This document shows, in pieces, positions 61,060 through 61,455 of a stretch of 64,000 bases of DNA. The notes beneath the pieces are model-generated. The model saw nothing but the letters and a program-made list of their open reading frames with translations. It was not told the origin of the DNA and made no database searches. How positions within the stretch are numbered: the first letter of the stretch is position 1; each line of letters begins with the position of its first letter. The position numbers and the translations under genes are program-made. The stretch comes from a virus. The stretch lies in the IMG/VR virus record IMGVR_UViG_3300045988_076685, positions 117,466-181,465 of that record. One strand, written 5' to 3'.

Positions 61060-61140
61060 GAAATGCGGACAGATTCGAACTGCCAACCTCTGAGTTCATA
61101 TACTCAGCGCTCTACCCACTGGACTTGAGCTACACATTTC
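61060..61140 (-). tRNA. aberrant tRNA-like gene (8-nt anticodon loop)
   Basis: Good T arm ggcagUUCGAAUcuguc; AU-rich 8-bp acceptor GAAAUGUG/CGCAUUUC; 14-nt D loop; anticodon stem cugag/cucag encloses 8 nt UAUAUGAA. Confidence 0.35.
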
Positions 61141-61350
61141 TATTTATACTAGTATTGCTATATAGCCTTATTTAAAAACTCATACTACTTTCACAAGCAA
61201 TGTGAGTTAGCTTTTAGTCACCCTTGACTAGACATAGATAATTACAAGAAATTCATCAATTTTCACAAATTAATGAATTAATATGAGTTTAAAACACTCA
61301 TAGATACTCAAATAACCATTTTATCATAATGTAATATCTTAAATAAACCA

Positions 61351-61455
61351 CTTAAATAAAGGGATTCGAACCCTTAATCCTCAAGAAATATTTAGTGACG
61401 ACTTTAGAGGCGCTTCCGTCAATCTACTGCCGTATACCAGTTCCGCCATATTTAA
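61351..61455 (-). tRNA. over-long tRNA-like element (about 105 nt)
   Basis: Canonical T arm aagggUUCGAAUcccuu and AU-rich acceptor UUAAAUA/UAUUUAA, but the internal 70 nt do not fold into standard D/anticodon arms; possible insertion-containing or degenerate tRNA. Confidence 0.25.

What the first reader, a model, noticed from the sequence alone, without database searches (positions are those of the whole stretch)
61060..61455. Two abnormal tRNA-like genes: one with an 8-nt anticodon loop, one about 105 nt long
**Seen in sequence:**
- 61060..61140 has a perfect T arm and an 8-bp AU-rich acceptor, but its anticodon stem cugag/cucag encloses UAUAUGAA (8 nt) and the D loop is 14 nt.
- 61351..61455 has a textbook T arm and a pairing acceptor, but 70 internal nucleotides do not fold as D and anticodon arms.

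**Established knowledge:** 8-nt anticodon loops occur in natural +1 frameshift-suppressor tRNAs.

**Inference:** These could be frameshift or recoding tRNAs, tRNAs with small insertions, or decaying pseudogenes.
Basis: seen in the sequence. Interest (0 to 1): 0.5.

Follow-up and report, generated by a model that had tools for sequence, protein, structure and literature searches.

The report
Two non-decoding tRNA-like phage RNAs
Two odd tRNA-like genes in a gut phage's tRNA cluster are real, conserved RNAs that keep the tRNA body but cannot read codons normally; one belongs to a widespread, apparently undescribed phage RNA family in which a pseudoknot replaces the anticodon arm.

Summary
Both features exist at the stated coordinates, on the minus strand, inside the tRNA array of an AT-rich gut phage distantly related to crAss-like phages.

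**61351-61455 (105 nt).**
- It is neither a pseudogene nor a tRNA with an insertion.
- It belongs to a family found in about 160 viral and metagenomic loci. Among bacterial genome assemblies it occurs only on two phage-like contigs.
- It has a tRNA-Leu-like acceptor stem, D arm and T arm.
- In place of the anticodon arm it has an H-type pseudoknot. Both helices are backed by compensatory changes, and the core is nearly invariant.
- Rfam 15 has no family for it. The one GenBank phage that holds it (cr60_1) leaves it unannotated.

**61060-61140 (81 nt).**
- It is a cloverleaf with a 14-nt D loop and the 8-nt loop UAUAUGAA.
- In 22 distinct orthologues the body is conserved and all five anticodon-stem pairs covary.
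- The loop is 6 nt in 17 orthologues and 8 nt only in the window's closest relatives. That argues against both decay and a conserved +1 frameshift role.

**Best reading.** Both are processed like tRNAs and act as non-decoding tRNA mimics. The structures are shown; the function is inferred.

The parts
61351..61455 (-). cand2: complete tRNA-like RNA (positions 1-73, 105 nt). Member of a phage RNA family with a pseudoknot in place of the anticodon arm.
   Evidence: Family covariance model R1 scores 107 bits, E about 5e-29. 71 distinct homologues are aligned.
61449..61455 (-). cand2 acceptor stem, 5' strand (UUAAAUA). Pairs with 61352-61358.
   Evidence: All 7 pairs have changes on both sides; 99% of cells are paired.
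61429..61446 (-). cand2 D arm (GCGG-AACUGGUAUA-CGGC). tRNA-Leu-like, with G18G19 and A14/A15.
   Evidence: Nearly invariant. The next-best R1 hits in the window are tRNA-Leu and tRNA-Ser. RNAalifold predicts the Leu-like register.
61422..61428 (-). cand2 conserved single-stranded linker AGUAGAU.
   Evidence: Nearly invariant across 71 sequences: six positions identical in all or in 70 of 71, the seventh U in 64 and C in 7.
61417..61421 (-). cand2 pseudoknot helix H1, 5' strand (UGACG). Pairs with 61396-61400 (CGUCA).
   Evidence: A-U changes to G-C in 7 sequences. G-C changes to A-U, with a G.U intermediate also seen. 98% paired. RNAalifold predicts it independently.
61411..61416 (-). cand2 pseudoknot loop 1 (GAAGCG).
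   Evidence: Its first four bases, GAAG, are invariant and the other two vary (C/U, then G/A).
61402..61410 (-). cand2 pseudoknot helix H2, 5' strand (CCUCUAAAG). Pairs with 61379-61387 (UUCUUGAGG).
   Evidence: Pair 2 is C-G or U-A. Pair 4 is C-G, A-U or U-A. One base pair is inserted on both strands together. An A.C mismatch is invariant.
61396..61400 (-). cand2 H1, 3' strand (CGUCA).
61388..61395 (-). cand2 pseudoknot loop 3, A-rich (CUAAAUAU). In long variants it carries an extra hairpin followed by an A-rich tract.
61379..61387 (-). cand2 H2, 3' strand (UUCUUGAGG).
61359..61375 (-). cand2 T arm (AAGGG-UUCGAAU-CCCUU).
   Evidence: 100% paired; 4 of 5 pairs have changes on both sides.
61352..61358 (-). 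cand2 acceptor stem, 3' strand (UAUUUAA). The discriminator G is at 61351.
61060..61140 (-). cand1: tRNA-like gene, from G(-1) at 61140 to C73 at 61060.
   Evidence: ARAGORN in mitochondrial mode. Rfam tRNA 25.7 bits. 22 distinct orthologues.
61113..61126 (-). cand1 enlarged 14-nt D loop (AAGUCCAGUGGGUA).
   Evidence: The D loop is 14-15 nt only in the window subclade and 8-9 nt in the other orthologues.
61090..61107 (-). cand1 anticodon arm: CUGAG-UAUAUGAA-CUCAG. The 8-nt loop lies at 61095-61102.
   Evidence: All 5 stem pairs have changes on both sides across orthologues. Loop length is 6 nt in 17 of 22, 8 nt in 3, 7 nt in 1 and 5 nt in 1.
61068..61084 (-). cand1 T arm (GGCAG-UUCGAAU-CUGUC).
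   Evidence: 100% paired.

Best explanation
Both loci are functional genes for non-decoding tRNA-like RNAs. They lie in the tRNA array of a large gut phage of Bacteroidota-type hosts.

**cand2**
- It keeps the parts of a class II, tRNA-Leu-like tRNA that form the acceptor/T minihelix and the D/T elbow.
- The anticodon arm is replaced by an H-type pseudoknot. H1 is UGACG/CGUCR. H2 has 8-9 base pairs with an invariant A.C mismatch. Loop 3 is A-rich.
- The pseudoknot is flanked by almost invariant single-stranded nucleotides.

**cand1**
- It keeps a complete cloverleaf.
- Its anticodon loop has a non-canonical length: 8 nt here and 6 nt in most orthologues.

**Inferred mechanism**
- Both are transcribed with the neighbouring tRNAs and matured by the tRNA machinery (RNase P, RNase Z, CCA addition), because they present a normal minihelix and elbow.
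- Neither can present a 7-nt anticodon loop, so they do not decode.
- They act as tRNA mimics that engage a factor which recognises tRNA: a host tRNA-directed nuclease or toxin, a modification enzyme, or an anticodon-independent synthetase such as LeuRS.
- For cand2, the invariant pseudoknot is the specific binding surface.

**Shown versus inferred.** The folds, the conservation, the phage restriction and the lack of a canonical anticodon loop are shown. Processing, the absence of decoding and the mimic or decoy role are inferred.
For: **cand2: breadth of the family**
- The core 16-mer occurs in 64 viral contigs, of which about 52 are true homologues.
- Further patterns brought the total to 161 loci: 74 viral, 84 metagenomic and 2 phage-like contigs in GTDB genomes.

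**cand2: structure**
- The acceptor and T stems differ completely between clades yet remain paired. 92.6% of cells are paired against 76.3% in shuffles. The covariation score is 0.508 against 0.183, reached by 0 of 500 shuffles. Slid registers score 0.10-0.17.
- H1 and H2 each carry compensatory changes that occur only in the proposed register: 8 and 25 cells, 0 of 1000 shuffles.
- An unbiased mutual-information scan recovers the same helices.
- RNAalifold finds the acceptor stem, T arm and H1 independently.
- The strand order is H1 5', H2 5', H1 3', H2 3', which defines an H-type pseudoknot.

**cand2: relation to tRNA-Leu and novelty**
- In the window, the next-best hits of the family model are tRNA-Leu(UAG) at 36.6 bits, tRNA-Ser at 33.6, tRNA-Asn at 32.6 and tRNA-Leu(UAA) at 31.7.
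- No Rfam 15 family other than tRNA matches.

**cand2: context**
- In cr60-like Crassvirales it lies 7-8 nt upstream of a suppressor tRNA(CUA).
- In window-like phages it lies 14-88 nt downstream of tRNA-Leu(UAA).
- Many environmental loci have no tRNA called within 1.5 kb.
- No protein neighbour is conserved across clades.

**cand1**
- There are 22 distinct syntenic orthologues.
- 96.7% of cells are paired, and all five anticodon-stem pairs have changes on both sides.
- Loop lengths are 6, 8, 7 and 5 nt in 17, 3, 1 and 1 orthologues.
Against: - No expression, processing or binding data are available.
- The identity of the partner is unknown, and no conserved neighbouring protein points to one.
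- The cand2 discriminator base is not conserved: G in gut clades, A in most environmental clades, U in one clade. That argues against a single synthetase as partner.
- Some window-like relatives carry visibly decayed cand2 copies, and L001 lacks it at the syntenic site. It is therefore dispensable in some lineages.
- Some cand1 orthologues lack the GG of the D loop. The apparent covariation of the cand1 anticodon stem could partly reflect swapping of whole anticodon arms between tRNA genes rather than stepwise compensation.
- Single-sequence folding energy is unremarkable for cand2 (z = -0.37) and only modest for cand1 (z = -2.0).
Confidence: 0.5

Rival explanations
1. cand1 is a +1 frameshift-suppressor or quadruplet-decoding tRNA. 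Its 8-nt loop would read a 4-base codon (CAUA or AUAU) at programmed sites in phage genes.
For: - The loop really is 8 nt, closed by a perfect 5-bp stem.
- The rest of the tRNA body is intact and conserved.
- 8-nt loops are the hallmark of classical +1 suppressors (established knowledge; SufB2, PMC7803779).
Against: - The loop UAUAUGAA has A at the position before the 4-base anticodon that ARAGORN calls. No register gives the U33 / four bases / purine-37 layout of a classical suppressor: U33 is either missing or preceded by two loop nucleotides.
- Only the window's closest relatives have 8 nt. Seventeen of 22 distinct orthologues have 6 nt, and their anticodon-like triplets differ on the same acceptor stem.
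- No sign of recoding is seen in the window.
- The late genes are not in the window, so +1 sites could not be searched.
Confidence: 0.07
2. One or both are decaying tRNA pseudogenes with no function of their own. Alternatively, cand1 survives only as a processing or punctuation signal.
For: - Both fall below Rfam's tRNA gathering score, and default ARAGORN misses them.
- cand1 orthologues vary in D-loop length and content and in anticodon-loop length.
- Decayed cand2 copies exist in relatives: a 7-nt deletion that fuses H2 to the T stem, and losses of the T loop or D loop.
Against: - Stems are maintained by compensatory substitutions in both families.
- The cand2 core is nearly invariant across gut, marine and other metagenomes in about 160 loci. 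Decay cannot account for that.
- The window's own copies are intact.
Confidence: 0.1
3. cand2 is an interrupted tRNA. An intron or inserted element is removed to give an ordinary tRNA, for example a tRNA-Leu or an amber suppressor. The window copy contains CUCUAAA, which looks like a CUA anticodon loop.
For: - With introns allowed, ARAGORN calls a low-quality tRNA-Val with a 14-nt intron.
- In the deletion scan, some deletions in the D-arm region make ARAGORN call tRNA(CUA) in the window copy.
Against: - Those calls have only 3 of 5 anticodon-stem pairs, and they use nucleotides that covary as H1 and H2.
- The same scan gives different and inconsistent calls for the cr60 and L090 members.
- The 'CUA' triplet varies (UUA, AUA, CUG, ACG, CCA), and its first base covaries with the 3' strand of H2.
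Confidence: 0.03
4. cand2 is charged, most plausibly by the anticodon-independent LeuRS, and works on the ribosome or as an aminoacyl donor. It would resemble tmRNA, a tRNA-like domain joined to a pseudoknot. It might be linked to the stop-codon recoding carried out by the adjacent suppressor tRNA in crAss-like phages.
For: - The D arm and elbow are Leu-like, with A14, A15 and a conserved U next to the T stem.
- Most environmental clades have A73.
- In many Crassvirales contigs it lies 7-8 nt upstream of the suppressor tRNA(CUA).
- From my own knowledge (Larkin et al. 2002): minimal tRNA-Leu molecules lacking the anticodon and variable arms are still leucylated in E. coli.
Against: - The discriminator is G or U in the gut clades.
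- There is no reading frame or tag and no G3.U70.
- Rfam's tmRNA model does not match.
- Inference: H2 and H1 stacked would be about 13-14 bp, longer than a normal anticodon arm, so they are unlikely to fit the ribosomal tRNA sites.
- Many family members stand alone without any suppressor tRNA nearby.
Confidence: 0.12
5. cand2 is a tRNA-scaffolded aptamer or small ribozyme. The invariant pseudoknot would bind a small molecule or catalyse a reaction, while the tRNA shell provides only processing and stability.
For: - The single-stranded nucleotides around a compact H-type pseudoknot are extremely conserved, and loop 3 is A-rich. This architecture is shared with preQ1-I and SAM-II aptamers and with pistol ribozymes (architecture comparison from established knowledge).
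- Other tRNA-like genes in the same array carry enlarged anticodon loops of 16-20 nt.
Against: - No Rfam riboswitch or ribozyme family matches, even at E up to 10.
- No adjacent gene is conserved that it could regulate.
- No cleavage-site signature was identified.
Confidence: 0.12

Closest known systems
Canonical class II tRNA-Leu (Rfam RF00005 tRNA)
   Same: - 7-bp acceptor stem.
- 5-bp T stem with a UUCGAAU loop.
- U8, A14/A15, G18G19, and a D loop GAAYUGGUAUA almost identical to the GAAUUGGUAGA of tRNA-Leu.
- No CCA end is encoded, as in the neighbouring phage tRNAs.
- tRNA-Leu genes are the next-best hits of the family model.
   Different: - There is no anticodon stem-loop.
- 16 extra nucleotides follow the D arm, and a covarying pseudoknot takes the place of the anticodon and variable arms.
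- The D stem has an invariant G.G mismatch or bulge.
- The window copy scores 19.4 bits against a gathering score of 29.
tmRNA (tRNA-like domain plus pseudoknots)
   Same: An acceptor/T-arm tRNA mimic joined to H-type pseudoknots, with no anticodon. The window also encodes a genuine tmRNA at 43938-44272.
   Different: - 105 nt rather than about 330 nt.
- No tag reading frame and no G3.U70 alanine identity pair.
- It keeps a D stem.
- The Rfam tmRNA model does not match it.
tRNA-like structures of plant RNA viruses (e.g. the TYMV valine-accepting structure; PMC7749636, PMC8127992)
   Same: A viral tRNA mimic that contains a pseudoknot and is handled by host tRNA enzymes.
   Different: - In those, the pseudoknot builds the acceptor arm, and an anticodon arm is kept.
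- They sit at the 3' end of +ssRNA genomes.
- Here the acceptor arm is ordinary, the anticodon arm is what has been replaced, and the RNA is a free-standing gene of dsDNA phages.
Classical +1 frameshift-suppressor tRNAs with 8-nt anticodon loops (sufD, SufB2; PMC7803779)
   Same: cand1 has an 8-nt anticodon loop on an otherwise normal cloverleaf.
   Different: - The classical suppressors keep U33 and a purine at 37 around a 4-base anticodon, and each derives from a defined isoacceptor.
- cand1 has A where U33 would lie before the 4-base anticodon that ARAGORN calls.
- Its orthologues mostly have 6-nt loops with changing triplets.
Phage tRNAs whose anticodon-loop mutations evade host anticodon nucleases (PMC10264068; see also PMC11464382, PMC11555353)
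   Same: Phage tRNA arrays in which sequence change is concentrated in the anticodon loop while the body stays conserved. This offers a plausible selective setting for cand1.
   Different: Those tRNAs keep a 7-nt loop and still decode. cand1 and cand2 cannot present a canonical anticodon loop.
Theta (HDV-like) ribozymes next to phage tRNAs (PMC10879173)
   Same: The same setting: gut phages of Bacteroidota hosts, next to tRNA-Met, tRNA-Leu and suppressor tRNAs, with a pseudoknotted fold.
   Different: - Theta ribozymes are nested double pseudoknots placed at the 3' end of a tRNA.
- They have no acceptor stem or T arm.
- cand2 is itself tRNA-shaped and has a single H-type pseudoknot.

Membership tests
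tRNA (Rfam RF00005) | Score at or above the curated gathering threshold (29 bits) | tested here: not met
   cand1 scores 25.7 bits. cand2 scores 19.4 bits, on the T-arm side only. The cr60_1 homologue of cand2 does pass, at 35.2 bits with a large insertion.
tRNA (Rfam RF00005) | Acceptor stem, T arm with a T-loop consensus, and a D arm with GG | tested here: met
tRNA (decoding) | 5-bp anticodon stem closing a 7-nt loop with U33 and a purine at 37 | tested here: not met
   - cand1 has the 8-nt loop UAUAUGAA, and its orthologues have 5-8 nt.
- cand2 has no anticodon hairpin, and its nucleotides form H1 and H2.
+1 frameshift-suppressor tRNA | 8-nt anticodon loop | tested here: met
   cand1 only.
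+1 frameshift-suppressor tRNA | The expanded loop and 4-base anticodon are conserved among orthologues, flanked by U33 and R37 | tested here: not met
   Only 3 of 22 distinct orthologues have 8 nt. No register of the loop gives the U33 / four bases / purine-37 layout: A precedes the 4-base anticodon that ARAGORN calls.
+1 frameshift-suppressor tRNA | Matching programmed +1 sites in phage genes | not tested
   The late genes lie outside the window. The complete genome (IMGVR_UViG_3300045988_089718, 143 kb) was not scanned.
tRNA pseudogene | Unconstrained decay: stem pairs are lost and there are no compensatory changes | tested here: not met
   Decayed copies occur only in some relatives.
Intron- or insertion-containing tRNA | Removing one contiguous segment restores a canonical cloverleaf, and the same one across family members | tested here: not met
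   Exhaustive deletion scan with ARAGORN on three family members.
H-type pseudoknot | Two helices in the order S1-5', S2-5', S1-3', S2-3', each supported by covariation | tested here: met
tmRNA | Tag reading frame, G3.U70, and a match to the Rfam or ARAGORN tmRNA model | tested here: not met
HDV-like / theta ribozyme | Nested double pseudoknot (P1, P1.1, P2, P3) that abuts the 3' end of a tRNA | tested here: not met
   The helix order differs. No P3 hairpin lies between H2 5' and H1 3'; a single U is there. There is no Rfam HDV-type hit.
Aminoacylatable tRNA-Leu mimic | A73 discriminator plus the Leu-type D/T tertiary core; charged by LeuRS | tested here: inconclusive
   The core features are present. 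The discriminator is A in many clades but G in the window and cr60 clades. Charging cannot be tested with these tools.

The most novel reading that the evidence does not exclude
Phages of Bacteroidota carry a class of natural 'tRNA-scaffold' RNAs. cand2 is a tRNA-Leu shell that displays an invariant pseudoknot. cand1 and its neighbours are tRNA shells with deliberately non-canonical anticodon loops. These RNAs would act as decoys or inhibitors of host factors that target tRNA, such as anticodon nucleases, tRNA-modifying toxins or a synthetase. Alternatively they would manipulate translation when suppressor tRNAs switch the genetic code. This would be a previously unrecognised anti-defence or takeover strategy based on RNA mimicry.
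Probability: 0.25. Interest if true: 0.85.

Novelty: new variant of a known kind. Interest (0 to 1): 0.65.

Why it matters
- tRNA finders and Rfam miss these genes, so phage tRNA repertoires, and any codon-usage or recoding inferences drawn from them, are incomplete.
- The cand2 family has a strongly conserved, covariation-supported fold and is spread across gut, marine and other metagenomes. It is a well-defined new target for structural and functional RNA work.
- In crAss-like phages it sits directly upstream of the amber-suppressor tRNA. That links it to the unresolved question of how these phages switch genetic code.
- If such RNAs are decoys for host tRNA-directed immunity, they would add an RNA-mimicry arm to phage counter-defence.
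- They would also be a natural precedent for the engineered 'tRNA scaffold'.

Tried and rejected
1. **Intron or insertion model for cand2.** An exhaustive scan of contiguous deletions, checked with ARAGORN, gave no consistent canonical tRNA.
2. **GGCG/CGCC pairing.** It closes the interior in the single-sequence minimum-energy fold. Rejected: G changes to A in 18 sequences with no compensation at the invariant C.
3. **UAG(A)/(U)CUA pairing, a codon:anticodon look-alike.** It shows no covariation and competes with H2, whose pair covaries.
4. **A long closing helix, as in Y RNA or YrlA.** Extension beyond 7 bp is absent in 16 of 71 sequences and only 1 bp in 24. There is no Rfam YrlA hit.
5. **A conserved protein partner encoded nearby.** None was found across 34 diverse loci.
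6. **Known RNA families.** Rfam 15 at E up to 10 returned only weak tRNA hits and spurious plastid hits on three family members.
7. **A second, template-like copy of either element in the window (diversity-generating-retroelement-style).** Apart from a few scattered chance 11-mers, only T-arm 11-mers shared with other tRNAs were found.
8. **Stop-codon reassignment in the window.** Recoding TAG or TGA gives no meaningful gain in open reading frame coverage.
9. **Literature.** Nothing describes this RNA. Supplement searches of two candidate-structured-RNA catalogues were empty or the files were not held.
10. **Bulged register for H2.** Sliding by +1 pairs about as well but has no compensatory cells.
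Full report
**Setting**

The window is 30% G+C, and all its genes lie on the minus strand. It encodes replication and nucleotide-metabolism proteins: an ATP-dependent ligase, helicases, NrdD, a DnaB-like helicase and NAMPT. The DnaB-like helicase is about 25% identical to the replicative helicases of crAss-like phages. It is 91% identical to an unannotated human-faecal phage scaffold.

ARAGORN finds 17 tRNAs and a tmRNA. Rfam adds one more tRNA. A 143-kb IMG/VR contig (L056) holds both candidates almost unchanged. 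Recoding TAG or TGA barely changes open reading frame coverage, so this part of the genome uses the standard code.

**Observation check**

cand1 (61140 down to 61060) reads:

G(-1) AAAUGUG UA GCUC AAGUCCAGUGGGUA GAGC G CUGAG UAUAUGAA CUCAG AGGUU GGCAG UUCGAAU CUGUC CGCAUUU C

- Default ARAGORN misses it.
- ARAGORN in mitochondrial mode draws this cloverleaf with a 4-base anticodon.
- The Rfam tRNA model gives 25.7 bits, below the threshold of 29.

cand2 (61455 down to 61351) has a 7-bp acceptor stem, a textbook T arm and a D arm that closely resembles that of tRNA-Leu. Only the anticodon arm is missing. The Rfam tRNA model aligns just the T-arm side, at 19.4 bits.

**cand2 belongs to a large, conserved, phage-restricted family**

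- A BLAST search of GenBank phages matched the cand2 stretch only in crAss-like phage cr60_1 (Buchavirus), where nothing is annotated.
- Pattern scans with conserved core segments recovered homologues in 74 viral loci and 84 metagenomic loci. These include human gut, Tara Oceans and other JGI samples.
- Among 185,579 GTDB species genomes it occurs on only two contigs. One is a 99-kb crAss-sized contig binned as Bacilli. The other is a 91-kb contig of a Chitinophagaceae assembly.
- I aligned 71 distinct sequences. Acceptor and T stems differ completely between clades, for example GGGAGAG/CUCUCCC, UUAAAUA/UAUUUAA, GUGAGUG/CGCUCAC and ACACUAU/AUAGUGU.
- By contrast, the interior UGGCGGAAnUGGUAUACGGCAGUAGAUUGACGGAAGCGCC...AAAGUCGUC is almost invariant.

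**Structure of cand2**

Beyond the tRNA helices, two further helices are supported by compensatory change.

- *H1 (UGACG/CGUCR).* The A-U pair becomes G-C in seven distinct sequences. The G-C pair becomes A-U in one subclade, and a G.U intermediate is seen in another sequence.
- *H2 (8-9 bp, for example CCCUAAAG/CUCUUGGG).* One pair is C-G or U-A. Another is C-G (52 sequences), A-U (9) or U-A (8). A whole base pair is inserted on both strands together in the window clade. A fourth pair is U.U, C-G, U-A or U.G. An A.C mismatch is invariant.
- *Topology.* The strand order H1-5', H2-5', H1-3', H2-3' makes this an H-type pseudoknot. Loop 1 is GAAGCG, loop 2 is a single U, and loop 3 is A-rich.
- *Long variants.* They carry an extra hairpin, often with a GNRA loop, followed by an A-rich tract in loop 3.

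Several independent tests support this structure.

- *Tool count for the whole structure.* 92.6% of cells are paired against 76.3% in shuffles. The covariation score is 0.508 against 0.183, reached by 0 of 500 shuffles. Slid registers score 0.10-0.17.
- *Register-corrected control.* H1 has 8 compensatory cells and H2 has 25. Slid registers have 0-2, apart from 9 for H2 slid by -3, where only 22% of cells pair. None of 1000 shuffles reaches the observed counts.
- *Unbiased mutual-information scan.* It returns these helices, plus one apparent covariation inside loop 3 that reflects the alignment of the long variants. No other helix emerges.
- *RNAalifold.* It independently predicts the acceptor stem, the T arm, H1 and the Leu-like D register.
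- *Family covariance model.* The window copy scores 107 bits. The next-best hits are tRNA-Leu(UAG), tRNA-Ser, a class II-like tRNA-Asn and tRNA-Leu(UAA), at 32-37 bits.

**What cand2 is not**

- *Not an interrupted tRNA.* I deleted every contiguous segment of 5-74 nt and re-ran ARAGORN. The calls for the window, cr60 and L090 members were inconsistent. The window's 'tRNA(CUA)' calls have two mismatches in the anticodon stem and use nucleotides that covary as H1 and H2.
- *No real anticodon.* The triplet that looks like an anticodon (CUA, UUA, AUA, CUG, ACG) is part of H2.
- *Not a pseudogene.* Decayed copies do occur in some relatives, and L001 lacks the element at the syntenic site.
- *Not a known family.* No Rfam 15 family other than tRNA matches. 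Literature searches found no description.
- *Not a theta ribozyme.* Theta (HDV-like) ribozymes share its ecological setting but have a different fold and position.

**Context of cand2**

- In cr60-like Crassvirales it lies 7-8 nt upstream of a suppressor tRNA(CUA). In cr60_1 itself a tRNA-Met, the large terminase and the portal gene follow.
- In window-like phages it lies 14-88 nt downstream of tRNA-Leu(UAA).
- In many environmental contigs no tRNA was called within 1.5 kb. There it is often followed by a U-rich tract.
- No protein neighbour is conserved across clades.
- The discriminator base is A in most environmental clades, G in the gut clades and U in one clade. Pairing beyond 7 bp is not universal.

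**cand1**

Local BLAST and pattern extraction gave 22 distinct syntenic orthologues in window-like phages.

- The acceptor stem, D stem, variable loop AGGUU and T arm are conserved.
- G(-1) is invariant, and C73 is present in 13 of 22. This resembles the G-1:C73 identity pair of tRNA-His.
- All five anticodon-stem pairs show changes on both sides, and 93.6% of the stem's cells are paired.
- The loop is 6 nt in 17 orthologues, 8 nt in 3 (the window subclade), 7 nt in 1 and 5 nt in 1.
- The 6-nt loops read like canonical loops missing one 5' nucleotide, in the pattern Y-NNN-R-A. The triplets differ (GUA, GUU, GAU, UAA, AUU, ACU, AGG) although the acceptor stem is the same.
- The 14-nt D loop is also specific to the window subclade. 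Some orthologues lack the D-loop GG.

A conserved decoding or frameshift role is therefore unlikely. Simple decay is equally unlikely, because the stems are maintained. ARAGORN labels several of these orthologues 'tRNA-???' with 2-base anticodons.

**Interpretation**

*Shown:*
- two conserved, structured, tRNA-shaped RNAs that cannot display a canonical anticodon loop;
- one of them, cand2, defines a widespread phage-specific family with a pseudoknot and an invariant core.

*Inferred:*
- They are matured by the tRNA machinery, because they offer a normal minihelix and elbow.
- They do not decode. H2 and H1 stacked would be about 13-14 bp, which is longer than an anticodon arm.
- They act as tRNA mimics that engage a tRNA-recognising factor.

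The concentration of change in the anticodon loop of cand1 fits the known arms race between phage tRNAs and host anticodon nucleases (PMC10264068, PMC11464382, PMC11555353). No partner has been identified, however.

The alternatives remain open and are scored separately:
- a charged Leu-type mimic acting on the ribosome;
- a tRNA-scaffolded aptamer or ribozyme;
- a lineage-specific frameshift role for the 8-nt loop;
- residual decay.

**Novelty and verdict**

tRNA mimics are known, including tmRNA, plant-virus tRNA-like structures and Y-RNA modules. I could not find this architecture described, nor the family of 6/8-nt-loop tRNA-like genes. The architecture is an ordinary acceptor, T and D core with the anticodon arm replaced by an H-type pseudoknot, encoded as a free-standing gene of dsDNA phages.

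I classify the finding as a new variant of a known kind. Interest is 0.65. Confidence is high for the structure and moderate to low for the mechanism.

Noticed in passing
window 63907-63990 (-): - A third kind of abnormal tRNA-like gene, which ARAGORN calls 'tRNA-Tyr(ata)'.
- It has a normal acceptor stem and D arm. A 4-bp stem (UCUC/GAGA) closes a 19-nt loop.
- Its T stem has two conserved U.U mismatches.
- It is conserved in relatives; in L001 ARAGORN calls it 'tRNA-Stop(tta)'.
- A paralogous family has a covarying stem (CCUC/GAGG) and a 16-nt loop.
   Followed up: partly
window 60856-60926 (-), ending 6 nt upstream of tRNA-Met (60775-60849): - A conserved structured element closed by GUGUCU/AGACAC.
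- Its internal hairpin changes sequence between clades but stays paired (UUCUC/GAGAA against CCCU/AGGG).
- It also has an invariant segment, GGAGAGGAUUAACGACCCUC.
- It is present in more than 20 related contigs, has no Rfam match and lacks a canonical T loop.
   Followed up: partly
window 43938-44272 (-): A phage-encoded tmRNA: Rfam 66.1 bits, ARAGORN tag peptide ARVINMTPAYQAAA.
   Followed up: no
window 63497-63587 (-): A 91-nt tRNA-Trp(CCA) with a class II-type D arm and a long variable arm. This is unusual for tRNA-Trp. It is also present in L001.
   Followed up: no
window 36713-36794 (-) and 36174-36258 (-): tRNA-Asn(GUU), 82 nt with an 11-nt variable region, closely resembles the neighbouring class II tRNA-Tyr(GUA). 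They share similar acceptor stems, the D-loop segment AAGUGGUCAAC and the same anticodon stem. This suggests an anticodon shift after duplication.
   Followed up: no
window 60988-61003 and 61185-61200 (-): An exact 16-nt motif, TTGCTTGTGAAAGTAG, occurs twice. One copy lies about 45 nt upstream of cand1. The other lies about 60 nt upstream of the conserved element that precedes tRNA-Met. It is also conserved in L001 and may be a phage promoter or operator.
   Followed up: partly
window 63068-63139 (-): A tRNA-His(GUG) with an irregular acceptor stem. Rfam finds it (35.7 bits) but ARAGORN does not.
   Followed up: no
L134, L048, L075, L082, L131, L145, L154, L071 (relatives of the window phage): Decayed copies of the cand2 RNA. 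One type has a 7-nt deletion that fuses the 3' strand of H2 to the T stem. Others have lost the T loop or the D loop. The RNA is therefore being lost in some lineages, including a 224-kb contig.
   Followed up: partly
L002 (cr60_1) 2909-2983 and many crAss-like contigs: The amber-suppressor tRNA(CUA) of cr60_1, annotated as tRNA-Gln, and those of related contigs start 7-8 nt after the cand2-like RNA. The two are probably co-transcribed.
   Followed up: partly
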